DNA of 64,000 nucleotides, taken from assembly GCA_020852255.1 (NCBI GenBank), contig JADZBD010000002.1:283531-347530 (forward strand), given 5' to 3'. This document shows positions 3,728 to 61,417 of this stretch, piece by piece; position 1 is the first letter of the stretch; every line of letters begins with the position of its first letter. Below the pieces are notes generated by a model, which ran no database searches, was not told where the DNA came from, and was given only the letters and a program-made list of their open reading frames with translations. The position numbers and the translations under genes are program-made. The DNA comes from Bacteroidia bacterium. GTDB lineage: Bacteria > Bacteroidota > Bacteroidia > JADZBD01.

Positions 3728-4729
3728 TTATTGCGGAATTACAATATCCGTCTGCCATTTTGTTGAATCCGGTTCAGCGCCCGGATCCGTGATGTACAAT
3801 TCCCAACGAGGAGCATGAACGTCTTTGCCATTAACCTTCAACCATTCGCTGATTCCCATATGGAAAGGATACATACTCTTATACCCTCCGAAATAGGAGA
3901 CTTTTAAAGCTTTGGTGTGAGTGGTAGAATACGCATTAAATCCCTCATCTGTTTTTACAGGAAGCTTATCTACGATAAAACCAACCTCCATGTCCACTTT
4001 GGTATCCGTGTAGTTCATGTAAATAGCGAACACCGGTCCGGCTTGTTTCGAACCTGCTTTTCCTGCCATGGCACCGATCTTTCCATATGTCTCGCCCAGG
4101 GTTTTAGAAATTTCTGAAGGGGTGCAGGAAACCTTCATCGTCACCACATTCATGGGAGCAGCGTCTACTTCTTCCATGGCAACGGGTGTCCATTTTGGAA
4201 AGCTCTCCACCAAGGTTTTCAAACCGTTCAACGACTTCATAAAATCAGCACCCAACATGGCATCCATATCCACCAGGGCCATCATAGGCCGAAGCATGAA
4301 AGGAGTTTCCATATCCATGTAACAAGTCACTTTCGTTGCGCCTGCAGAATCCTGAAATACCCATCCACCAATACTTTCTCCCATCCCCTCGAAGGTGAGC
4401 TTATATTCAACCAGCTTTCCCGCATCACTCTTCAAGATTTCAATTGAACCCTTTCCTACACTGTCGTTTGTACTTTCCCAAAGATGGATAGCACCAACAC
4501 CTGCATTCGGGCCTTCAAAAGTGGTTTTCATGTTGGGATCAATATTATCCCAGTATGACCACTTGATCCATTGGGTCAGATCATTCACGGGTCCAAAGGT
4601 GGTATTGGGGTCTGATTGAATGAGCAGGGAACGTTCAATATGCATTTTTGAAGGGAGGGTTACAGCCCAAACACACCATCCGGTAAAAATTACCAATGTA
4701 GTGATAATCAGGTATTTAACTACTTTCAT
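3728..4729 (-). CDS. Membrane-anchored SRPBCC (polyketide-cyclase/START-like) plus GyrI-like small-molecule-binding domain protein
   Basis: The track ORF (3728-5101) overlaps the divergent M23 gene. The start at MKVVKYLIITTLVIFTGWCVW (ATG 4729) is followed by a TM helix and is preferred. The fold assignment rests on an overall beta-rich SRPBCC/GyrI-like pattern only. Confidence 0.45.
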   Translation of the reverse strand: MKVVKYLIITTLVIFTGWCVWAVTLPSKMHIERSLLIQSDPNTTFGPVNDLTQWIKWSYWDNIDPNMKTTFEGPNAGVGAIHLWESTNDSVGKGSIEILKSDAGKLVEYKLTFEGMGESIGGWVFQDSAGATKVTCYMDMETPFMLRPMMALVDMDAMLGADFMKSLNGLKTLVESFPKWTPVAMEEVDAAPMNVVTMKVSCTPSEISKTLGETYGKIGAMAGKAGSKQAGPVFAIYMNYTDTKVDMEVGFIVDKLPVKTDEGFNAYSTTHTKALKVSYFGGYKSMYPFHMGISEWLKVNGKDVHAPRWELYITDPGAEPDSTKWQTDIVIPQ

Positions 4730-4817
4730 GAGGGTCTTTTTAATTTCTCCAAAGGTATAAGAATGGTGAATATTCCTTGGATTTCCGCTTGATTTTTTTA
4801 GTTTAGCACTCCTCATT

Positions 4818-5837
4818 ATGAAGACCAGGAATCTCATAGTGCTACTCCCCTTCTTTTTAGGGCTGGTATTCGCCGGTCCTGCCTCGGGTATGGCGGTTAG
4901 TAATGTGGATACACTGCCTCTGCGCGAAGTAATCCGCACGAATAACCTGGAACTTGTGTCGAAGATGAGCGATGAGCAGTTAGTAGTCCTGATTGATCTG
5001 CTTTTTGAACTGGACTCGATACCGGTAGACCTGGCGGCCGAGATAGGAAGAACAGTCAAGTCACGCAGATCATCAGACCCTGCGCCACTGACGGTTGTCA
5101 AGCCTGTAAGTCTGCAACTATATGAAAGTTCAACGCCTGCGTCAGAATATTACACGGTTTTTGATTCGAAACATCTTGTTCCCATCGAGGACAGCTGGAA
5201 AAAATCCGATACGGGATTTGTTATCAATATGTATCCTGAGGGACATGAGGAATTCTTCATGCCCACTTGTGCCATCGTTTCTTCACCTTTCGGATGGAGG
5301 GGCGATACGGCAATGCACAACGGCATTGATCTTGACCTGAACCGGGGTGATCCTGTGGTGGCAGCCTGGGATGGTATTGTGCGCATGTGCGGCCGGCATG
5401 GTAACTACGGTAATCTTGTGGTGGTGCGGCATTACAATGGACTGGAAACAGTGTATGCGCACTTACATAAGATCAGGGTGAAAGTAGGTATGCAGGTAAA
5501 AGCCGGGCAGGCGGTAGGATTAGGTGGAAGCACAGGGCGATCTACGGGTTCACATCTTCATTTTGAGGTACGTTTTAAGGGGCAGCCGATCAATCCAAAA
5601 TACTTCATTTCATTCCGTTCGGAAAAGCCAATTGGAATGTACATGGTCATCCGGAAAACCCGTAATGGTATGTGTGCCTATCCGCTGGGAGTCGAATACC
5701 ACACAGCCGAAAAAGGAGATAATATTTTTGAGATCGCGAAGCGGTACGGAAAAACCGTGAAGGATATTAAAGAGTTGAACGGAATGAGTGGCAAGAGTTA
5801 TAAGATCAAGCCGGGTATGAAGGTAAGAGTGAGTTAA
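4818..5837 (+). CDS. M23 family metallopeptidase with C-terminal LysM domain
   Basis: Signal peptide MKTRNLIVLLPFFLGLVFA. M23 motifs HNGIDL and GSTGRSTGSHLHFEVRFKGQPINP. LysM at the C-terminus (YHTAEKGDNIFEIAKRYGKTVKDIKELNGM). Confidence 0.8.
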   Translation: MKTRNLIVLLPFFLGLVFAGPASGMAVSNVDTLPLREVIRTNNLELVSKMSDEQLVVLIDLLFELDSIPVDLAAEIGRTVKSRRSSDPAPLTVVKPVSLQLYESSTPASEYYTVFDSKHLVPIEDSWKKSDTGFVINMYPEGHEEFFMPTCAIVSSPFGWRGDTAMHNGIDLDLNRGDPVVAAWDGIVRMCGRHGNYGNLVVVRHYNGLETVYAHLHKIRVKVGMQVKAGQAVGLGGSTGRSTGSHLHFEVRFKGQPINPKYFISFRSEKPIGMYMVIRKTRNGMCAYPLGVEYHTAEKGDNIFEIAKRYGKTVKDIKELNGMSGKSYKIKPGMKVRVS

Positions 5838-6274
5838 GGATTCAACAGCTTTTTAACCATTTCTGATATTGCCTTCCCATCCGTTTTTCCTGCAAGAGCT
5901 TTGGTAGCTTGTCCCATCACCTTCCCCATGTCACCTGGACCTTTGGCCCCCACTGCTTCGATGATTTTCTGAAGTTCCGCCTTCAACGCATCCGGACTCA
6001 TTTGCGCCGGAAGAAAGGCTTCAATCACTGAAGCCTGAAACAACTCCACTTCTTCCAGGTCCTTCCTGTTCTGAGAGGAGTAAATCTCTGCCGTTTCCTT
6101 GCGTTGCTTGACCATCTTTTGAAGGGCTTTCAATTCCGTTTCCTGAGTATACCCTTCAGGGGAAGTCTTAAGCAGCAGGATGGCAGATTTAATTCCCCGG
6201 AGTGCTTCGAGCTTTCTGGCATCTTTGGCAAGCATGGCCGCCTTTATATCAGCGTTGATCTTTTCCTCTAACAT
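5834..6274 (-). CDS. GatB/YqeY domain protein
   Basis: MLEEKINADIKAAMLAKDARKLEALRGIKSAILL... is the typical YqeY N-terminus. The internal Met at 6274 is preferred over the track start at 6343. Confidence 0.7.
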   Translation of the reverse strand: MLEEKINADIKAAMLAKDARKLEALRGIKSAILLLKTSPEGYTQETELKALQKMVKQRKETAEIYSSQNRKDLEEVELFQASVIEAFLPAQMSPDALKAELQKIIEAVGAKGPGDMGKVMGQATKALAGKTDGKAISEMVKKLLNP

Positions 6275-6296
6275 ATTTCTGTGTTTGGGAACAAAT

Positions 6297-6333
6297 ATAA
6301 AAAAAGTAGGGAGGCCCGAAGCTGCCCCCCTAC
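6297..6333 (-). terminator. Rho-independent terminator downstream of ftsZ
   Basis: On the minus strand: GUAGGGGGG-CAGCUUCGGG-CCUCCCUAC (9-bp stem with one G-U pair) followed by U7. Confidence 0.6.
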
Positions 6334-6354
6334 TCGACTGCATTCTAATCTAAA

Positions 6355-8829
6355 CTAATCTACATTGTCGTGAAGGAAAGAATTGTTCGGTTTAATCTCG
6401 ATCTTCTTGTCCTCCCCTTCACTCAGGGTATATCTGCTAACGTTGGATTCCGACGAATGTTGCTGGTTATCGAGGTTCACGCCACGACGCTTGTAAGCAG
6501 GCTCGTTTTCCAGTTCGGCCAATCCGTTCGGTGATTTAAGCTTATAGCTCAGTTCCTTCAAGCGCTGGATACGTTCCTGCGCTTTTTTGATCTGACTGTT
6601 GCTGGCCATGGTTTCTTCCGATTTTTCTTCGGCAACCACTTCATCCTGCTTTTTCTGCTCTATGGTGAGCACCGGCGGCTGAATTTCTTCCTTTCGCATC
6701 TCCACTACCGGGGTTTCATCCACAGGTGTTTCCGTTACCCCGGCTTCCGGGGATGCGGTCACCTCCGCTACCGGCGTTTCCTCAGCGGGAATTTCTGCAA
6801 CCGGTTCAGAACTGATTTCCATAACCGGCTCCTCCCGGATTTCTTCGGCGCTAAAGTCCAGTGTAATTTCCACTTCCTTCTTCTCTACCTCCGATTCTAC
6901 TGAAAAGGCATCCGGTTCTACACAAAGGGGCGCCGTTTCCTGCTCCAGCATTTCTTCCAAAGACGATACTTCATCTGTCGTTTCAGGATGCGTCTCCGCG
7001 GTGAACAAGTCCGATTCCGGTGAATTGTGTTCTTCTATTTCGGGGGTCTCCTCGGAAATAAAGGTTTCATTTTCAAAAAGCGACTCCTGCTCCACCTCAG
7101 CCGCAGGTACTTCTGTGATCATTTCCACCTCGGGAGTGGTATTCTCCTCTGTATTCATTAGGACAGGAATTTCCTCCACCGCGGTCACTTCCTCCTCCAC
7201 TTCCGTTACTTCCTCTATTACCGCGGTTACTTCCTCCATTACAGGAGTCTGCACTTCCATCATTGGTGTTTCCTCCGGATGGGTTGTCTCTTCCAGGGCA
7301 GTGATCTCCTCCTCTGCATGGATCACTTCAGAAACAGGTAACTCTTCCAAAACCGGGGTTTCCTCCAACAAAGGTGTTTCTGCCACCGGGCTGATCTGGA
7401 CCTCAGCAGTTATCTCCGCTACCGGAGCTTCCACAACAGGAATTTCCGCCACGGGTGTAATCACTTCAAACTGCTCCTCCGTTTTCACCTCCTCCTCTGC
7501 CAGGGGGGCAACATTTACCCATCCGGACGGAGCAGGAATAGATTCCTCCACCGGGGAAGAAAGAAAGTCAGAAGAATAAAGATCTGATTCCTCCTCTTTA
7601 ACTTCCTCCACAGCGGCAACCTCTTCTACGTTTCTGATAACAAGTACCGGCTCCAGGAGGCGATCTTTTTCCTCACGGGAAAGGTTGCTGAAGGTCTTAT
7701 TCTCATCGGTTCTGAGATCCGATTTTACCTCCATACTCCCTTTCAATACCGGCTCATCCGCGCTATGATCTGCAACAGGAGGAGCCACACAATTCATTTC
7801 GGATGTGCTTTCGTTCAGATCCAGCACTTTTTTCTCCGGCTTCTTGTGGGTTTCATATCCCAGCAGGGGACGGGAATGGAATCCGGTGGCAATAATGGTC
7901 ACATTCACCGAATCGCCGAGTGAATCATCCACACCATATCCGATTTTAATATCTGCATTTGTTCCGGTAGAATCCTGGATAAAATCCGTAATCTCTCCCA
8001 GTTCATCCATTGTGAGTTCCTTGGTACCGGAGGTGATATCAATGAGAACAAACTTGGCACCTGTGATTTCATTATCGTTCAGCAGCGGAGAATTCATTGC
8101 GACCTCCACGGCTCGAATAGCCCGGTTTTCCCCGGCCGCACTGCCTGTTCCCATCAGAGCAACACCGCTGTTCTTCATCGCAGTATGAACGTCGTTAAAG
8201 TCTACGTTCATATGCTTGGTATGGGAAATCAGTTCAGCGATACTCTTGGCAGCATTGGCCAGTACATTATCGGCCTGGGCAAAAGATTCACGCACGCCAA
8301 GGTTTCCGTAGATCTCTCTTAGCTTGTCGTTGGTAATCACCAGCAGACAGTCTACATGCTTTTTCAGTTCCTCGATCCCCAGTTCCGCCTGTTTCCGTTT
8401 ATTTTTCCCTTCGAAAGAGAAAGGAAGTGTTGCAATTCCCACGGTAAGCACGCCCATTTCGCGGGCGGTCTGGGCGATGATCGGAGCCCCTCCTGTGCCC
8501 GTGCCCCCACCCATGCCGGCGGTAATGAACACCATCTTTGTGCCCTTGGAAAGAAAATCTTTGATCTGATCCAGGCTTTCTATGGCTGATTTCATACCGA
8601 TCTCAGGAAGAGATCCTGCGCCGAGGCCCTGGGTAAGGGCTTTGCCCAATTGTACCTTTATGGGAACGGGACTGGACTCCAGTGCTTTAATATCGGTATT
8701 ACACACAATAAAATCCACCCCTTTGATACCGAGGCGAAACATGTGGTTTACTGCGTTTCCTCCTCCGCCACCAACGCCGATGACCTTGATAATGGAGAGG
8801 AGTTCTTTTGGAATGTCGAAGCGCATCAT
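6355..8829 (-). CDS. ftsZ: Cell division GTPase FtsZ with very long acidic C-terminal linker (824 aa)
   Basis: N-terminus IKVIGVGGGGGNAVNHM plus tubulin signature GGGTGTG. The core ends near aa 330, followed by roughly 450 aa of E/V/T/P/A-rich low complexity and a short conserved tail. Confidence 0.95.
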   Translation of the reverse strand: MMRFDIPKELLSIIKVIGVGGGGGNAVNHMFRLGIKGVDFIVCNTDIKALESSPVPIKVQLGKALTQGLGAGSLPEIGMKSAIESLDQIKDFLSKGTKMVFITAGMGGGTGTGGAPIIAQTAREMGVLTVGIATLPFSFEGKNKRKQAELGIEELKKHVDCLLVITNDKLREIYGNLGVRESFAQADNVLANAAKSIAELISHTKHMNVDFNDVHTAMKNSGVALMGTGSAAGENRAIRAVEVAMNSPLLNDNEITGAKFVLIDITSGTKELTMDELGEITDFIQDSTGTNADIKIGYGVDDSLGDSVNVTIIATGFHSRPLLGYETHKKPEKKVLDLNESTSEMNCVAPPVADHSADEPVLKGSMEVKSDLRTDENKTFSNLSREEKDRLLEPVLVIRNVEEVAAVEEVKEEESDLYSSDFLSSPVEESIPAPSGWVNVAPLAEEEVKTEEQFEVITPVAEIPVVEAPVAEITAEVQISPVAETPLLEETPVLEELPVSEVIHAEEEITALEETTHPEETPMMEVQTPVMEEVTAVIEEVTEVEEEVTAVEEIPVLMNTEENTTPEVEMITEVPAAEVEQESLFENETFISEETPEIEEHNSPESDLFTAETHPETTDEVSSLEEMLEQETAPLCVEPDAFSVESEVEKKEVEITLDFSAEEIREEPVMEISSEPVAEIPAEETPVAEVTASPEAGVTETPVDETPVVEMRKEEIQPPVLTIEQKKQDEVVAEEKSEETMASNSQIKKAQERIQRLKELSYKLKSPNGLAELENEPAYKRRGVNLDNQQHSSESNVSRYTLSEGEDKKIEIKPNNSFLHDNVD

Positions 8830-8911: not shown

Positions 8912-10183
8912 TTACTCCCGGGCCGCGTCGTCCTCAAACCACTCTTTCCCGCGAAGAAAAAACCGCTCAATTAAATTGCCGGCCCGCTTCGTGGTATGGG
9001 TAGCAATTTTCTCCTTTCTACGGGTAGTATCCTGCTCCACCGCTTCCAGCCCTTTAATCACAAGTCCCACCCCGGTGGCGTACATTGGACTGGTAACCTC
9101 CTCCACGCTTTTGGCCAGGTGTTCATTAGGATAACCAATACGGGTATCCATTCCGGTGATATACTCAATAAGCTGTGTGATGTGCTTCAGTTGCGCTCCG
9201 CCGCCGGTTACCACTATACCTCCTGCCAGTTTCTTCTCGTACCCGCTGTTTTTGATCTCATAATAAACATGCTCGATGATCTCCTCCATTCTGGCCTGTA
9301 TGATATGTGCCAGGTTTTTAACTGAGATTTCCTTAGGTTCCCTTCCGCGTAACCCGGGAATGGAAACGATCTCATTTTCCTGGGTTTCGTTGGCAAAACA
9401 AGAGCCGAATTTCACCTTCAGCAGCTCTGCCTGACGGTGAATGATAGAGCAGCCTTCTTTAATATCTTCCGTAATCACATTACCCCCAAATGGAATAACG
9501 GCAGTATGGCGGATAATGCCATCGTAGAAGATCGCTATATCCGTGGTACCACCTCCGATGTCTACCAGCACGATTCCGGCCTCCTTTTCTTCCTCGCTCA
9601 GCACGGCAGAGGCCGAGGCCAGCGGTTCAAGAACCAGTCCTACTGTTTCCAGCCCCGCCTTGGCAATGCACTTGACAATATTGTTCATGGCAGCAACCTG
9701 ACCGGTGATAATATGAAAATTAGCCTCCAGGCGGATTCCAGACATTCCGATGGGATCTTTAATTCCCTGCTCACTATCCACAATATACTCCTGCGGAAGT
9801 ACATGCAGTATCTGCTCGCCCGGTAGCATTACGAGGCGGTACATATCCTCTATTAAAGCATTAATATCCTTCTGGTTAATCTCATCCTCCAGACTCTTCC
9901 GGGTATAAATTCCCCGGTGCTGCAGACTTTTAATGTGCTGCCCTGCAATTCCAACCATTACGGTTGTTATATCTACACATGCACGATCTGAAGCTTCCTG
10001 GATGGCTGCACGGATAGCAATAACCGTTTTCTCAATATTGACCACCACGCCGCGCATAACGCCTTGTGAATCGCTCTTCCCCATACCGAGAATTTCGATC
10101 TTCCCGAATTCATTTTTGCGCCCCACAATGGCGGCAATCTTGGTGGTTCCGATGTCTAATCCGACTATGATCTCTGATTCCAT
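8912..10183 (-). CDS. ftsA: Cell division protein FtsA
   Basis: Actin-like ATPase motifs: IVGLDIGTTKIAAIVG and VLVDIGGGTTDIAIF. Start chosen at MESEIIVGLDIG; the track start at 10207 is also possible. Confidence 0.9.
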   Translation of the reverse strand: MESEIIVGLDIGTTKIAAIVGRKNEFGKIEILGMGKSDSQGVMRGVVVNIEKTVIAIRAAIQEASDRACVDITTVMVGIAGQHIKSLQHRGIYTRKSLEDEINQKDINALIEDMYRLVMLPGEQILHVLPQEYIVDSEQGIKDPIGMSGIRLEANFHIITGQVAAMNNIVKCIAKAGLETVGLVLEPLASASAVLSEEEKEAGIVLVDIGGGTTDIAIFYDGIIRHTAVIPFGGNVITEDIKEGCSIIHRQAELLKVKFGSCFANETQENEIVSIPGLRGREPKEISVKNLAHIIQARMEEIIEHVYYEIKNSGYEKKLAGGIVVTGGGAQLKHITQLIEYITGMDTRIGYPNEHLAKSVEEVTSPMYATGVGLVIKGLEAVEQDTTRRKEKIATHTTKRAGNLIERFFLRGKEWFEDDAARE

Positions 10184-10184
10184 A

Positions 10185-10979
10185 TCATTCTGTTTTAGAA
10201 CAAACAATCTGATTTTTAAATTTCAGCTGGATGGTATCGTATTGGTTCCATCCTGTATGATTTAACCCTTCCGTGTAAAAGATACGGAGTTTATCCAGTT
10301 TCTGTTTCATTTCTGAGGTATCTCCCATCATGATCCGGTGATCGCCGGCCCGCGGAATCAACTCAAATTCCATTTGCGCATTCACATAAATCTGCTCGAA
10401 CTGAGCCGCCCACAAAGAATCGCTGTCCAGATATCTGACCAGATGATATACCTCATCCAATATCGTGGTTTCCAGGTCTTTACCTCCATCAGCGAAAGCA
10501 AAATTAAAATGTGAGTTAAAGCATTCGCTGATCTCTCCATTGACCAGAATCACCCTCGGGGTAAAGCCGGGTGACCAGTTCATCATGTGTCCATTCCGGT
10601 CGAGGTAAAAAGTTTCTCCGTTTTTATTCATGACACGCGCCAGGGGGTCCTTCTGAATGATATCAATCCGCAGTTTTCCGTTGATGCTCATATATACCTC
10701 AGCGCTTTCAACCCAGGGATTGGTATTCACCAACATTTCCAGTCGGGGCACACTGATGCTGCCCAGGGGCATTCCCTCCAGTGCATCGCCGTTACTCCTG
10801 ATCAGCTCGCGAATGGCATCTTCTTCCACAAGATAATTTTCTCCATTTCGAAGAATATTGATCTCCACTTCACTGCAAAGCAGGCGCTCTTCCTCTGCTG
10901 AGGCAAAACCCAGCAACACCAGAATTCCTGCTCCCAGCAGGCTCCAGCATACAGCATAAATAATCCGTCTTAATTTCAC
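10185..10979 (-). CDS. ftsQ: Cell division protein FtsQ (POTRA domain)
   Basis: Single N-terminal TM helix, about 260 aa, sits between murC and ftsA. Confidence 0.75.
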   Translation of the reverse strand: MKLRRIIYAVCWSLLGAGILVLLGFASAEEERLLCSEVEINILRNGENYLVEEDAIRELIRSNGDALEGMPLGSISVPRLEMLVNTNPWVESAEVYMSINGKLRIDIIQKDPLARVMNKNGETFYLDRNGHMMNWSPGFTPRVILVNGEISECFNSHFNFAFADGGKDLETTILDEVYHLVRYLDSDSLWAAQFEQIYVNAQMEFELIPRAGDHRIMMGDTSEMKQKLDKLRIFYTEGLNHTGWNQYDTIQLKFKNQIVCSKTE

Positions 10980-13455: not shown

Positions 13456-14608
13456 CAGGGACAGAATCTTTCTCCGCGGGTAGTTCTGTTTCCAGCTCTC
13501 TGCTCACGCTGAGCAGAATTCCTACCGCAATACTGGTGAACCAAATCGAAGTTCCTCCCATGCTGATGAAAGGCAAAGGCTGTCCCGTTACCGGAAACAG
13601 ATTGACTGCCACCGCCATGTTGATAAATGCCTGGAACACCAGGCTGAAAGCCAGTCCCACCGAGACCAGTACGCCAAATAACTTTTCACACTTGGTGGCT
13701 ATTCTTATCGCCCGGAACAATATGATGATGTAAAAGAAGATAAGGACAATTCCGAGAAGTCCGCCCATTTGTTCCAGGATCATCGCGAAAATAAAATCTG
13801 AGGATGCCTGCGGAAGAAAAGAGCGTTGGTCCGAATTTCCAAGTCCTTTGCCCACAAAAAAATTTGAGCTTCCAATGGCGGTTTTGGCCATTTCCGACTG
13901 ATAATTCTCCTTTGCATTTCCGGAAGTAAAATCTGTCAGGCGTTCTTTCCAGGTCTCACCTCTGGGTATTACGCCCGGTGCATAGATGATGAGCATAATC
14001 ACCACACCGAGAAATACGATCCCGGCACCAGCCACCGTCAACAGGTGTTTGATCCGCGCTTTTCCGATGAAGAGTAAAAGCATGCAGGTAGCAAACAGCA
14101 TAGCCGAAGTAGAAAAATTAGTGGGAAAGATGAGACCACAGATCAGGACAACCGGAAGAAACACAGGCAAGAAACCCTTTTTGAAATCTCCAAGCATATC
14201 CTGCTTTACCGTAAGTAAACGGGCGAGATACATCAGGAGCGAAAGCTTTGCCAGATCAGAAGGCTGGAATGTGAGTCCCAGTCCCGGTATTTCTATCCAT
14301 CTTCCGGCACCTCCCGCTTCCACACCCCAGAAGGTGGCATAGATCAGCAAAGGAATAGATATATAAAATCCAATTTGCCCGATCCGTGAAAAATAGCTGA
14401 ACCGTATCCGGTGGATGAGATAAATGATTCCGAGTCCCATGCAAAGAATTGCGGCGTGTTTGACCAGGTAGGGAATGGTATTTCCCCCTTTATATTTAAA
14501 GGCCAGCGTGCCGATAGATCCGTAAACCATCAACAATGAAACCACTGACAGCAGGACAATGGTCACCCATAGTACCTTATCTCCTTTTAATGCGCGCAGT
14601 ATTCCCAT
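13439..14608 (-). CDS. ftsW: SEDS-family peptidoglycan glycosyltransferase FtsW
   Basis: Polytopic membrane protein with SEDS pattern (...PLPFISMGGTS...), in the dcw position. Confidence 0.85.
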   Translation of the reverse strand: MGILRALKGDKVLWVTIVLLSVVSLLMVYGSIGTLAFKYKGGNTIPYLVKHAAILCMGLGIIYLIHRIRFSYFSRIGQIGFYISIPLLIYATFWGVEAGGAGRWIEIPGLGLTFQPSDLAKLSLLMYLARLLTVKQDMLGDFKKGFLPVFLPVVLICGLIFPTNFSTSAMLFATCMLLLFIGKARIKHLLTVAGAGIVFLGVVIMLIIYAPGVIPRGETWKERLTDFTSGNAKENYQSEMAKTAIGSSNFFVGKGLGNSDQRSFLPQASSDFIFAMILEQMGGLLGIVLIFFYIIILFRAIRIATKCEKLFGVLVSVGLAFSLVFQAFINMAVAVNLFPVTGQPLPFISMGGTSIWFTSIAVGILLSVSRELETELPAEKDSVPDVSPA

Positions 14609-15099
14609 CAGGGTAACAGTTTTCGGACCGCCTTTTTGAACAGGTCGCCCCGGTTTTTATAATTATCAAATGCATCGTAACTGGGACAGGATGGTGAAAA
14701 GAGTACCAGGTCTCCGCTGCGTCCCCACTTTGAAGAGATGAACACTGCTTCCTCAATTGAAATAGCATGCGCAAAAAACATACATTCTCTCCGGAACATT
14801 CTGTACATTCTGTCAGGATCACTGCTCAAACAGATCAGTCCTTTCACTTTTTCCTTCATTAAATCCCTCAGCAGGGAATAGTCCACTCCGCGGTCCTGCC
14901 CGCCGAGGATCAGCAGCACGTTCTTACTGCCTGTTTCCATGGAGCGGAGACTTTCCCAGGTAGTATTCACCCGGATGGAGCGTGAATCGTTAATAAAATC
15001 AATTCCACGGACACTTCCGGCAGGCTCCAGAGCATGGTCAAAGAGCGTGGAGGTATCCCGTTTATAAACCGATATTTTCTTCTTTGCAAACATAGGCAA
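14608..15099 (-). CDS. Stand-alone Mur-ligase C-terminal-domain protein, a diverged paralog of the MurD C-terminus
   Basis: 163 aa. [23 protein letters not shown]...LLILGGQDRGVDYSLLRDLMKEKVKGLICL...GDLVLFSPSCPSYDAFDNYKNRGDLFKKAVRKL aligns at roughly 40% identity with the C-terminal ~140 aa of the adjacent full-length MurD ([23 protein letters not shown]...[28 protein letters not shown]...[33 protein letters not shown]). It starts 12 bp after the murD stop, and its stop overlaps the ftsW start. Confidence 0.6.
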   Translation of the reverse strand: MPMFAKKKISVYKRDTSTLFDHALEPAGSVRGIDFINDSRSIRVNTTWESLRSMETGSKNVLLILGGQDRGVDYSLLRDLMKEKVKGLICLSSDPDRMYRMFRRECMFFAHAISIEEAVFISSKWGRSGDLVLFSPSCPSYDAFDNYKNRGDLFKKAVRKLLP

Positions 15100-60163: not shown

Positions 60164-61417
60164 TCACTCGTCCCGCTTCACATTAACGAGTTCAATGCGT
60201 CCACGGGTAACGTTGGTAATGGTAAAGGTATATGTTCCGATCCGGATGACTTCACCTTGCCGGGGTACGCTCTGGTGGTGATGCAGGATAAATCCTGAAA
60301 GGGTTTCGTACTCCTCTTCCTTCTCGAGGTCAAAACTATATTTTTGATTCAGGTGATCTACTTCAATTCGGCCACTGAAGAGAAACTCGCGCTCTGATAT
60401 CTTCCGGTCTGTAAGTTCCTCCTTATCATGTTCGTCCTCGATCTCGCCGAAAATCTCTTCCATCACGTCTTCCATAGTAAGAATTCCGGCGGTTACGCCG
60501 AACTCATCCACCACCACCGCCATGCTTTTTCTCTGTTGGATAAATAAAGTGAGTGCATCCCGTGCGGGCATAGATTCGGGCACTATAATAAGGGGAAGCA
60601 GTACACTGCGAAGCGTTTCGGGATGGCGAAAGAGCTCATGGGAATGAATATATCCAACGAGCTGATCCACGGTTCCGTCAAACACCAGTATTTTTGAGAG
60701 CCGGGTATCAATAAATTTTTGCCTGAGTTTGCTGACCGGACTGTTTGCCTCCACTGCAACAATCTCCGTCCGAGGAACCATACATTCCCTAACTTTTACT
60801 TCCGAAAAATCCAATGCATTCCTGAAAATGGTTACTTCATGATCCATTCCGCTCAGATCCTTTTGCCCCACGGTTTCTCTTACCAGGTTGTCCAGGTCTA
60901 CCCGTCCAAAGCTGGTTTCAGTTTCCGTAACTTCCACACCGGCCATTCGCTTGAGTAGCTGGTTAGATATAAAAAGAGAAATGAATACAATCGGTGAAAG
61001 TATCCAATAGATAATCATCAGCGGCACGGCGAAAACGCTCAGTAGTCCGTTGGGGTTAATCCGGAACAGGCTTTTCGGAATATACTCCGCCGCCACCAGA
61101 ATAATCAACGTAGAGATCAATGTGGTTAGAACCAGATTCAGCAGGTCGTGACTGATCCACCGTCCAAAATATCCGAAGAGAACTGTTTCCATAAAAATGG
61201 AAAAGATCACCAGTGCAATACTATTGCCAACAAGCATGGTGGCGATGAAATGGGCGGGTTTGCGGACAAAATAGGAGATAATTCCCGCGTTCAGTCCTCC
61301 CTGTTTGGTGCTCAGCTCGATTTTCAGCTTATTGGCAGTCAGAAACGCAATCTCCATCCCGGAAAAAAAAGCAGAAGCAGCAACAGCGGAACAAATATAG
61401 ATCCAGGTAGCGCTCAT
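60164..61417 (-). CDS. CNNM/CorC/HlyC-family membrane protein (DUF21 + CBS pair + CorC_HlyC), GldE-like
   Basis: N-terminal DUF21 TM domain, paired CBS region, C-terminal transporter-associated domain (GEVIRIGTYTFTITNV). Confidence 0.7.
   Translation of the reverse strand: MSATWIYICSAVAASAFFSGMEIAFLTANKLKIELSTKQGGLNAGIISYFVRKPAHFIATMLVGNSIALVIFSIFMETVLFGYFGRWISHDLLNLVLTTLISTLIILVAAEYIPKSLFRINPNGLLSVFAVPLMIIYWILSPIVFISLFISNQLLKRMAGVEVTETETSFGRVDLDNLVRETVGQKDLSGMDHEVTIFRNALDFSEVKVRECMVPRTEIVAVEANSPVSKLRQKFIDTRLSKILVFDGTVDQLVGYIHSHELFRHPETLRSVLLPLIIVPESMPARDALTLFIQQRKSMAVVVDEFGVTAGILTMEDVMEEIFGEIEDEHDKEELTDRKISEREFLFSGRIEVDHLNQKYSFDLEKEEEYETLSGFILHHHQSVPRQGEVIRIGTYTFTITNVTRGRIELVNVKRDE

What the first reader, a model, noticed from the sequence alone, without database searches (positions are those of the whole stretch)
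6460..7810. FtsZ with a ~450-aa acidic, repeat-rich intrinsically disordered linker (824 aa total)
The GTPase core (about 330 aa) is followed by a very long E/V/T/P/A-rich low-complexity region with reiterated motifs such as PVAE, EEVTAV and TPV.E, before a short C-terminal tail. This is about twice the usual FtsZ length. The linker also produces an open S/T-rich antisense reading frame (7001-7579). FtsZ linker length tunes Z-ring-to-membrane spacing and polymer bundling, so a linker this long is functionally interesting. It is also a likely hotspot for length polymorphism through repeat slippage.
Basis: seen in the sequence. Interest (0 to 1): 0.5.

Follow-up and report, generated by a model that had tools for sequence, protein, structure and literature searches.

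The report
FtsZ with unusually long acidic linker
This is a genuine cell-division protein FtsZ from an uncultured Bacteroidota bacterium, and its floppy acidic tether is the longest I found among relatives, but long tethers of this kind are already described for this phylum, so it is an extreme example rather than a new thing.

Summary
ORF 6355-8829 (-) encodes an intact 824-aa FtsZ, the last gene of a dcw cluster (…murC-ftsQ-ftsA-ftsZ, then a terminator-like hairpin).

**Architecture**
- Residues 1-320: canonical GTPase core.
- Residues ~323-723: predicted disordered, E/V/P/T-rich, net charge about -94, including a 200-residue block with no K or R.
- Residues 726-824: a highly conserved C-terminal module, not a "short tail". 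It has a helix, a CTC-like EPAYKRR motif, and a 42-aa tail ending in the invariant NNSFLHDNVD.

- Mis-assembly or frameshift is unlikely. The frame runs into the conserved C-terminus, the longest exact DNA repeat is 12 nt, and independent assemblies encode 680-764-aa relatives.
- The antisense ORF is a compositional by-product.
- The linker evolves fast (dN 0.30 against 0.019 in the core). It carries all the indels, even among more than 90%-identical relatives.

**How unusual it is**
- Core-to-CTC distance is 458 aa, the longest of 203 parsed relatives (median 199).
- A 2025 survey already reports Bacteroidota linkers peaking near 295 aa, a survey-wide maximum of 433 aa, and helical islands.

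**Verdict:** a new, extreme member of a known kind. Interest is modest.

The parts
6355..8829 (-). ftsZ coding sequence, 824 aa plus stop codon
   Evidence: ORF list; Pfam; TIGR00065 above its cut-off; PDB FtsZ hits.
7870..8829 (-). GTPase/polymerisation core, aa 1-320. Includes the G-box GGGTGTG at aa 107-113 and the T7-loop NVDFND at aa 208-213.
   Evidence: Pfam Tubulin 14-174 and FtsZ_C 222-317. AF2 is confident over aa 8-322. 97.3% identical to the closest homologue with no gaps.
7630..7869 (-). Proximal linker, aa 321-400, mixed charge. Carries the conserved short motifs KKPEKKV (aa 329-335, window 7825-7845) and LEPVL (aa 392-396, window 7642-7656; a DEPVL copy lies at aa 358-362).
   Evidence: Conservation profile on alignment A1. 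Motif present in 184/210 (LEPxL-like) and 136/210 (KKxEKxV-like) relatives, against about 17 and 13 in shuffled linkers.
6655..7629 (-). Hypervariable acidic disordered linker, aa 401-725
   Evidence: AF2 pLDDT below 50 for most of it, with no secondary structure. Low alignment occupancy. 63% identity with 112 gap columns against the closest homologue. dN 0.30 against 0.019 in the core. Falls on the disordered side of the Uversky charge-hydropathy boundary.
6883..7482 (-). Polyanionic block, aa 450-649: 200 residues with no K or R and 61 D/E
   Evidence: It is the longest K/R-free run among 210 relatives (median 39).
7172..7237 (-). Degenerate tandem repeat, 21 nt x3.1, encoding EEVTAV(I) x3 at aa 532-553
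   Evidence: TRF; sequence. The homologue P0001 has roughly one copy here.
6755..6805 (-). Dispersed internal duplicate (PVAEIPxxExPVAE[VI]TA), paired with 7406-7456 at 78% nt identity
   Evidence: the repeat finder family D3.
6853..6876 (-). Diverged copy (VEITLDFS, aa 652-659) of the family-wide 'xEFEI' linker island
   Evidence: Alignment A1, occupancy 0.92. An xEFEI-like motif occurs in 173/210 relatives against about 21 in shuffles. The strict pattern is not met in the query.
6535..6654 (-). Conserved amphipathic, basic helix, aa 726-765 (…SQIKKAQERIQRLKELSYKLK)
   Evidence: AF2 helix 726-765, with 10-residue block means of pLDDT 73-83 over aa 741-780. R753 invariant; K758, E759, L760, K763, L764 and K765 at least 90% conserved.
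6472..6525 (-). CTC-like motif, aa 769-786 (GLAELENEPAYKRRGVNL), the presumed FtsA-binding peptide
   Evidence: E774, P777, A778, R781 and L786 invariant; Y779 at least 90% conserved. Matches the canonical D-x-P-x-F type CTC described in PMC9939409, with E for D and Y for F. Binding to FtsA is inferred.
6358..6471 (-). Conserved post-CTC tail, aa 787-824, ending in the invariant NNSFLHDNVD (aa 815-824, window 6358-6387)
   Evidence: Invariant columns H791, S792, E794, S798 and N816-D824 except N822, which is at least 90% conserved. Tail length after the CTC is 42 aa at the median (range 41-47) in 203 relatives. 116 of 120 hits end in NNSFLHDNVD.
6304..6335 (-). Terminator-like hairpin (12-bp stem, 7 G-C pairs, then a T-run) 20 nt after the ftsZ stop
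   Evidence: This is a consensus match only.
8912..10183 (-). ftsA, immediately upstream. Probable start MESEIIVGLDIG, 423 aa. The C-terminal segment (…NLIERFFLRGKEWFEDD) sits where FtsA membrane-targeting helices lie; it was read by eye and not tested for amphipathicity.
   Evidence: Pfam FtsA and SHS2_FTSA. Same length and start in seven related loci.
7001..7579 (+). Antisense 192-aa ORF: a compositional by-product, not a gene
   Evidence: An open antisense run at least as long arises in 15% of codon-order shuffles and 41% of synonymous resamplings. In the closest relative the longest antisense open frame is in a different frame.

Best explanation
This is the organism's housekeeping FtsZ and the last gene of the dcw cluster. 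It is built like other Bacteroidia FtsZ proteins, with the variable part of the C-terminal linker expanded to an extreme.

Proposed mechanism:
- The GTPase core (aa 1-320) polymerises.
- A predicted-disordered segment of about 400 residues (aa ~323-723) acts as a flexible polyanionic tether. It has net charge of roughly -90 and a central 200-residue block with no basic residue.
- A conserved C-terminal module (helix 726-765, the EPAYKRR CTC-like peptide at aa 776-782, and a 42-aa tail ending NNSFLHDNVD) docks onto the membrane anchor FtsA, and probably onto other partners.

Inferred consequences:
- By polymer scaling (Rg about 0.19 nm x N^0.6, my own calculation), 400 residues give an end-to-end distance of about 17 nm and a contour length of about 145 nm. 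A 50-residue E. coli-type linker gives about 5 nm. The tether therefore allows a longer and looser filament-to-membrane connection.
- Its dense negative charge should oppose lateral bundling of filaments.

How the length arose: local duplication and indel turnover in a region where composition and a few short motifs are constrained, but the exact sequence is not.

Shown here: identity, architecture, predicted disorder, conservation pattern, evolutionary rates, indel localisation, and rank among relatives.

Inferred only: FtsA binding by the EPAYKRR peptide, the tether and brush function, and any phenotypic effect of the extra length.
For: Identity and genomic context:
- Pfam and TIGR00065 hits and PDB FtsZ hits.
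- The neighbours are ftsA, a slot for ftsQ, murC, murG, ftsW, murD and mraY.
- Synteny is identical in L006 and L007.

Disorder:
- AF2 with a 62-sequence alignment gives pLDDT below 50 and no secondary structure over most of aa 323-723. It gives a confident core and a helix at 726-765.
- The charge-hydropathy criterion calls it disordered, with NCPR -0.24.

Conservation pattern:
- Invariant C-terminal columns.
- Islands of conservation inside the linker.
- The C-terminal module occurs only at the C-terminus of FtsZ proteins or FtsZ fragments: 1105 representatives in the library, 150 listed and 5 read.
- Every listed hit to linker plus module carries FtsZ Pfam domains.

Evolution:
- Against the closest homologue, the core is 97% identical with 0 gap columns and the C-terminal module 96% with 0. 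The linker (aa 401-740) is 63% identical with 112 gap columns.
- dN is 0.019 in the core, 0.30 in the linker and 0.049 in the module.
- There is indel polymorphism inside 90%-identity clusters.

Rank: core-to-CTC distance is 458 aa, the longest of 203 parsed relatives (median 199, next longest 399).

Literature (bioRxiv 10.1101/2025.11.25.690400):
- Bacteroidota CTLs peak near 295 aa.
- The range over 4,603 FtsZ sequences is 13-433 aa.
- Helical ordered islands occur in 533 of 1,013 Bacteroidota sequences.
Against: - No experiment or read-level data were available, so disorder, FtsA binding and tethering are predictions.
- The 2025 preprint found that changing CTL length from 0 to 250 aa in E. 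coli FtsZ did not change ring diameter, turnover or treadmilling in vitro. It also found that CTL length does not correlate with cell width. The extra length may therefore have little functional consequence and reflect neutral drift.
- The conserved motifs inside the linker argue that it is not just a passive spacer.
- The motif patterns were defined after looking at the same sequences, so the enrichment figures are descriptive.
- The sample of 203 relatives is biased towards sequences similar to the query.
Confidence: 0.85

Rival explanations
1. The linker is not mainly a spacer. It is a multivalent interaction hub. Conserved short linear motifs (KKPEKKV, two xEPVL copies, the xEFEI-type island), the conserved helix and the invariant NNSFLHDNVD end each recruit Bacteroidota-specific division partners. 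The acidic stretches only separate these docking sites.
For: - Motif islands are conserved across relatives whose surrounding linker cannot be aligned.
- LEPxL-like motifs are present in 184/210, xEFEI-like in 173/210 and KKxEKxV-like in 136/210, against 13-21 in shuffled linkers.
- The post-CTC tail is 42 aa at the median (range 41-47) with invariant residues.
- The 2025 preprint also suggests species-specific interactions for ordered islands in Bacteroidota linkers.
Against: - No partner is identified.
- The motifs were defined post hoc on related sequences.
- The query itself has only a diverged version of the xEFEI island.
- About 255 residues of the query's extra length lie between islands, where nothing is conserved. 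The hub idea therefore does not explain the expansion that prompted the finding.
Confidence: 0.35
2. The extra ~200-260 residues are functionally neutral. Under this reading, duplication and indel drift in a region needs only to remain disordered and acidic, so 824 aa is just the upper tail of a drifting length distribution.
For: - Linker length varies from about 130 to 458 aa among relatives with identical architecture.
- Indels segregate among more than 90%-identical sequences.
- dN is 16-fold higher than in the core.
- Linker length had no effect on ring geometry in vitro and shows no correlation with cell width.
Against: - Composition is tightly kept across relatives. E is 17-25% (10th-90th percentile) and NCPR is negative in all 84 parsed.
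- Longer linkers are more acidic (r = -0.62).
- pN (0.25) stays well below the saturated pS (0.77) at aligned linker codons, so some constraint persists.
Confidence: 0.4
3. The long linker is an assembly or sequencing artefact, either expanded repeats or a chimeric join.
For: The region is low-complexity with reiterated peptide motifs. The exact protein is absent from the 15-billion-protein collection.
Against: - The longest exact DNA repeat is 12 nt and the only tandem array is 66 nt at 73% matches. That is far too short and too degenerate to mislead an assembler.
- The frame is unbroken from the core to the invariant C-terminus.
- The closest homologue, from an independent run, aligns along the whole linker with conserved blocks on both sides of each indel.
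- Independent assemblies encode FtsZ of 684-764 aa with the same architecture.
Confidence: 0.03
4. The antisense ORF 7001-7579 (+) is a real overlapping gene encoding an S/T-rich protein.
For: It is a 192-aa ORF with a GTG start.
Against: - Open antisense runs at least as long arise in 15% of codon shuffles and 41% of synonymous resamplings of the linker.
- Equally long or longer antisense open frames lie opposite other acidic FtsZ linkers. In the closest relative the longest one is in a different frame.
- The promoter scan is at background level.
Confidence: 0.02

Closest known systems
Bacteroidota FtsZ with long C-terminal linkers and helical 'ordered islands' (survey of 4,603 FtsZ sequences, bioRxiv 10.1101/2025.11.25.690400)
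   Same: - Same phylum-level architecture: core, long acidic disordered linker, then a conserved helix near the C-terminus.
- Relatives retrieved here share the RLKELSxKLK helix, the EPAYKRR motif and the NNSFLHDNVD end.
   Different: - The query's linker is longer than the reported Bacteroidota mode of about 295 aa. It is about 400 aa by the pLDDT-type definition and 458 aa from core end to CTC.
- That puts it at or just beyond the reported maximum of 433 aa.
- It is the longest of 203 relatives examined here.
- It carries a 200-residue block with no K or R.
Alphaproteobacterial long-linker FtsZ (Caulobacter crescentus, CTL about 170 aa; Agrobacterium tumefaciens, about 250 aa). Studied by Goley and colleagues (bioRxiv 10.1101/171280, 10.1101/632075); the A. 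tumefaciens linker was used as a donor in 10.1101/2025.11.25.690400.
   Same: A long disordered linker between the core and the CTC. In those systems the linker regulates protofilament bundling and downstream cell-wall metabolism.
   Different: - Unrelated linker sequence and composition.
- The linker here is two to three times longer and far more acidic.
- It is followed by a roughly 100-aa conserved module rather than a short CTC with a few variable residues.
- The alphaproteobacterial lengths are quoted from my own knowledge.
E. coli and B. subtilis FtsZ (about 50-aa CTL, then CTC and a short CTV)
   Same: Same core family (TIGR00065). Same logic of core, linker and a conserved peptide that binds FtsA.
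   Different: - The linker here is about 8-9 times longer.
- E. coli accepts only about 43-95 aa, and B. subtilis is perturbed above about 100 aa (PMC9939409).
- The CTC core reads E-P-A-Y-K-R-R instead of D-I-P-A/T-F-L-R.
- The region after the CTC is 42 aa and highly conserved, rather than short and variable.

Membership tests
FtsZ (TIGR00065 equivalog; Pfam PF00091 + PF12327) | Whole-protein score above the curated equivalog cut-off | tested here: met
   354.9 bits against a cut-off of 295.2, over aa 12-330.
FtsZ (TIGR00065 equivalog; Pfam PF00091 + PF12327) | Tubulin/FtsZ GTPase domain with the G-box GGGTGTG, a T7-loop with acidic residues, and the FtsZ_C domain | tested here: met
   - PF00091 at aa 14-174 and PF12327 at aa 222-317.
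- GGGTGTG at aa 107-113 and NVDFND at aa 208-213, read from the translation.
- These columns are invariant in A1 apart from G108, V209, F211 and N212.
FtsZ (TIGR00065 equivalog; Pfam PF00091 + PF12327) | Position at the end of the dcw cluster, directly downstream of ftsA | tested here: met
   Same order in L006 and L007.
FtsZ (TIGR00065 equivalog; Pfam PF00091 + PF12327) | C-terminal conserved peptide (CTC) with conserved D, P and F that binds FtsA or other anchors | tested here: inconclusive
   - A CTC-like ENEPAYKRR lies at aa 774-782. P777, A778 and R781 are invariant and Y779 is at least 90% conserved.
- It has E for D and Y for F compared with the consensus quoted in PMC9939409.
- Binding to FtsA could not be tested.
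FtsZ (TIGR00065 equivalog; Pfam PF00091 + PF12327) | GTP-dependent polymerisation and Z-ring formation | not testable with these tools
   Needs biochemistry or imaging.
Intrinsically disordered FtsZ C-terminal linker (CTL) | No stable predicted structure between the core and the CTC | tested here: met
   AF2 pLDDT below 50 with no DSSP elements over most of aa 323-723. The exception is a 4-residue helix at aa 385-388. The Uversky charge-hydropathy criterion calls it disordered.
Intrinsically disordered FtsZ C-terminal linker (CTL) | Hypervariable sequence and length among orthologues while the core and CTC are conserved | tested here: met
   Only P0001 and P0002 align over most of the linker.
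Intrinsically disordered FtsZ C-terminal linker (CTL) | Charge-patterning kappa within the range reported for FtsZ tails (about 0.13-0.36 for 95% of 1209 orthologues; bioRxiv 10.1101/301622) | tested here: inconclusive
   My own simplified kappa gives 0.11-0.13 for the linker and 0.14-0.16 for the whole tail. That is at the lower edge of the range. It is not the reference implementation.
Bacteroidota-type FtsZ tail (long CTL plus ordered helical island) | A conserved helix with high pLDDT beyond residue 310, inside the C-terminal region | tested here: met
   Helix 726-765, with 10-residue block means of pLDDT 73-83 over aa 741-780. The columns are conserved. The feature is described in the preprint.
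Bacteroidota-type FtsZ tail (long CTL plus ordered helical island) | A fixed tail of about 42 aa after the CTC, ending NNSFLHDNVD. This is my own operational definition from the relatives, not a published one. | tested here: met
   116 of 120 hits end in NNSFLHDNVD. Tail length is 41-47 aa, median 42, and the query has 42.

The most novel reading that the evidence does not exclude
The 'linker' of Bacteroidia FtsZ may be a modular interaction scaffold rather than a passive tether. Conserved short motifs (KKPEKKV, xEPVL x2, xEFEI), an amphipathic basic helix and an invariant NNSFLHDNVD terminus would recruit lineage-specific divisome partners.

In this organism, the 200-residue lysine- and arginine-free polyanionic block would be a selected electrostatic brush. 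It would keep filaments unbundled and hold them away from the membrane or the nucleoid.

If so, this would be the longest natural FtsZ tether known. It would serve as a natural experiment on how far the Z-ring can sit from the membrane.
Probability: 0.2. Interest if true: 0.5.

Novelty: new member of a known kind. Interest (0 to 1): 0.25.

Why it matters
FtsZ linkers are a model case for how disordered regions tune a cytoskeletal machine. Model organisms tolerate only about 40-100 residues, yet this natural protein works, presumably, with about 400-460.

As an extreme natural variant it could be useful in two ways:
- Reconstitution with its own FtsA.
- Cryo-tomography of filament-to-membrane distance.

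The conserved motifs and the 100-aa C-terminal module also point to Bacteroidota-specific division partners that nobody has identified.

It does not reveal a new kind of system. Long, partly ordered linkers in Bacteroidota FtsZ are already documented.

Tried and rejected
1. **FtsA docking test.** I built chimeric FtsA-(GGGGS)8-FtsZ-tail sequences from six loci to ask AlphaFold which C-terminal motif docks on FtsA. The CTC assignment therefore rests on motif similarity.
2. **Mis-assembly through repeats.** Rejected: the longest exact repeat is 12 nt, the frame is continuous and independent homologues exist.
3. **Antisense ORF as a gene.** Rejected by two null models and by lack of frame conservation.
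4. **Gene fusion with another domain.** Rejected:
   - No Pfam or NCBIfam hit beyond aa 330.
   - No PDB hit beyond aa 364.
   - Every database hit to linker plus tail is an FtsZ.
5. **Proteome-wide acidity.** Apart from one ~130-aa acidic stretch in the ORF 60164-61417 (-) (window 60215-60604), no other stop-free stretch in the window has a comparable acidic segment. The strand-skew anomaly at 36-40 kb is just secA.
6. **Rfam scan of the window.** No hits.
7. **dN/dS.** No ratio could be given for the linker because synonymous sites are saturated against the closest homologue.
8. **Preprint supplements.** The supplementary tables of the 2025 preprint, which would name the species with the 433-aa linker, are not held.
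9. **The 816- and 842-aa relatives.** They seemed at first to be longer-linker cases. They owe their length to N-terminal extensions of about 77-87 aa instead.
Full report
**What is there**

The minus-strand ORF 6355..8829 encodes 824 aa.
- Pfam finds the Tubulin/FtsZ GTPase domain at aa 14-174 and FtsZ_C at aa 222-317, and nothing else.
- The NCBIfam ftsZ equivalog TIGR00065 scores 354.9 bits against a cut-off of 295.2, over aa 12-330.
- Solved FtsZ structures match aa ~4-340 only.
- Upstream on the same strand lie ftsA, an ftsQ-slot ORF, murC, murG, ftsW, a small ORF, murD and mraY. This is a standard dcw cluster.
- A terminator-like hairpin (6335..6304, 12-bp stem plus T-run) follows the stop codon.
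- The same gene order occurs around the homologues in L006 and L007.
- The finding's coordinates 6460-7810 correspond to aa 340-790.

Residues 331-760 are 24% E, 12% V, 8% P, 8% T, 7% S and 7% A, with 119 acidic and 25 basic residues.

PV.E occurs 13 times against 1.1 expected from composition, and 0 of 5000 shuffles reach that count.

A stretch of 200 residues (aa 450-649) has no K or R and 61 D/E.

At the DNA level the repeats are weak:
- one 21-nt x3.1 array at 73% matches (7172-7237, EEVTAV(I) x3);
- one dispersed 51-nt pair at 78% identity;
- a longest exact repeat of 12 nt.

**Architecture**

AlphaFold2 was run with a 62-sequence alignment. It gives:
- a confident core (aa 8-322);
- pLDDT below 50 and no secondary structure over most of aa 323-723;
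- a helix at 726-765, with 10-residue block means of pLDDT 73-83 over aa 741-780;
- two short helices at 769-774 and 778-781;
- a low-confidence end.

Conservation mirrors this. The last ~85 residues are as conserved as the core. Invariant columns are R753, E774, P777, A778, R781, L786, H791, S792, E794, S798 and N816-D824 except N822, which is at least 90% conserved.

The peptide ENEPAYKRR (aa 774-782) resembles the canonical CTC, whose conserved D, P and F are described in PMC9939409. Here E replaces D and Y replaces F. I take it as the FtsA-binding peptide, which is an inference.

After it comes a 42-aa tail ending in NNSFLHDNVD. Its length is 42 aa at the median (range 41-47) in 203 relatives, and 116 of 120 hits share that ending. 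The 'short C-terminal tail' is therefore really a ~100-aa conserved module.

Inside the linker, three short islands are conserved in relatives whose surrounding linker cannot be aligned:
- KKPEKKV (aa 329-335);
- xEPVL (aa 358-362 and 392-396);
- an xEFEI-type island, diverged to VEITLDF in the query (aa 652-659).

They are present in 136-184 of 210 relatives against 13-21 in shuffled linkers. These patterns were defined post hoc.

**Artefact tests**

- The frame is unbroken into the invariant C-terminus.
- No DNA repeat is long enough to mislead an assembler.
- The closest homologue, P0001 (732 aa, from an independent sequencing run and identical in synteny), aligns through the linker with conserved blocks flanking each indel.
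- Reads could not be mapped, so the case against mis-assembly is indirect.

The antisense ORF 7001-7579 is a by-product.
- Antisense open runs at least as long appear in 15% of codon-order shuffles and 41% of synonymous resamplings.
- Comparable or longer antisense open frames lie opposite other acidic linkers. In the closest relative the longest is in a different frame.

**Evolution**

| Region | Identity to P0001 | Gap columns | dN |
|---|---|---|---|
| Core | 97.3% | 0 | 0.019 |
| aa 331-400 | 72% | 2 | 0.217 |
| aa 401-740 | 63% | 112 | 0.30 |
| C-terminal module | 96.4% | 0 | 0.049 |

Identities and gaps are and dN. The dN segments differ slightly: core 1-320, 321-400, 401-725 and 726-824.

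Synonymous sites are saturated, so no dN/dS ratio can be given for the linker. pN is 0.25 against pS 0.77 at aligned linker codons, which indicates some residual constraint.

The tandem EEVTAV array is expanded relative to P0001.

Within clusters of at least 90% identity in related species, sequences differ by linker indels. P0003, P0364 and P0366 (712, 719 and 707 aa) differ by a 7-aa and a 12-aa indel at one spot in the linker. P0362 differs from P0002 by a 2-aa ET indel.

The linker is therefore a genuine hotspot for length change. Classical slippage on exact repeats can explain only a minority of that change.

**How unusual**

- The top 120 database relatives are all Bacteroidota FtsZ of 494-842 aa, median 572.
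- Core-end-to-CTC distance in 203 complete relatives has a median of 199 and a 99th percentile of 397. The query's 458 is the longest.
- The 816- and 842-aa proteins are long because of N-terminal extensions.
- A search with linker plus tail found only FtsZ proteins and none longer.
- The C-terminal module occurs only at FtsZ C-termini or in FtsZ fragments: 1105 representatives in the library, of which 150 were listed and 5 read.
- The exact protein is not in the 15-billion-sequence collection.

**What is already known**

A 2025 preprint (10.1101/2025.11.25.690400) analysed 4,603 FtsZ sequences.
- CTL length ranges from 13 to 433 aa, and Bacteroidota peak near 295 aa.
- Partly ordered helical islands occur in 533 of 1,013 Bacteroidota linkers.
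- CTL length does not correlate with cell width.
- Changing CTL length from 0 to 250 aa did not change ring diameter or dynamics in vitro. Charge patterning did.

Earlier work, summarised in PMC9939409, shows that E. coli tolerates about 43-95 aa and that B. subtilis is perturbed above about 100 aa.

**Mechanism**

The model is a standard FtsZ whose filaments are tied to membrane-bound FtsA through a very long, polyanionic, flexible tether.

The window's FtsA ends in …NLIERFFLRGKEWFEDD. That segment sits where FtsA membrane-targeting helices lie; I read it by eye and did not test its amphipathicity.

By polymer scaling (my own calculation), 400 residues give an end-to-end distance of about 17 nm, against about 5 nm for a 50-aa linker. 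The strong negative charge should disfavour lateral bundling.

Whether the extra length matters, or is drift within a permissive region, is open. I rate those two readings about equally. The 'interaction hub' reading of the conserved motifs is compatible with either.

**Verdict**

- It is a new, extreme member of a known kind.
- Interest is modest, at 0.25.

Noticed in passing
L007 6001-8529 (P0075); also P0119, P0126 and P0137: Some related FtsZ proteins carry an acidic N-terminal extension of about 77 to 445 aa before the core. All begin at or near the called N-terminus with a shared MD(F/N)Y(S/N/D)IF peptide and end in an HTHN/HTNN…AMKF(D/E)LPE junction. A disordered N-terminal arm with a conserved tip on FtsZ is unusual.
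   Followed up: partly
window 14608-15099 (-): A 163-aa ORF sits between murD and ftsW, with only a weak Mur_ligase_C match (E 1e-4, below the Pfam cut-off). The same slot holds a 164-aa gene in L006, and a 181-aa gene lies directly upstream of ftsW in L007. Neither has a Pfam hit.
   Followed up: no
window 6274-6343 (-): The mechanical ORF for the YqeY-family gene (5834-6343, 169 aa) overlaps the terminator-like hairpin after ftsZ. The homologue in L006 is 146 aa, so the true start is probably the internal ATG near 6274 (MLEEKINAD…).
   Followed up: partly
window 10185-10979 (-): The 264-aa ORF in the ftsQ position, between murC and ftsA, has no Pfam hit at E <= 0.001. The same is true of the genes in that slot in L006 and L007.
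   Followed up: no
P0003 / P0364 / P0366 (relatives; L001 6001-8160): Near-identical FtsZ sequences from different samples (712, 719 and 707 aa) differ by 7-aa and 12-aa in-frame indels at one spot in the linker. This is population-level length polymorphism in a related species.
   Followed up: yes
window 3728-5101 (-) and 4818-5837 (+): The 457-aa TTG ORF overlaps the M23 peptidase/LysM gene on the opposite strand. The homologous gene in L006 is 333 aa (Polyketide_cyc2 / GyrI-like), so the long N-terminal part of the ORF is probably not translated.
   Followed up: no
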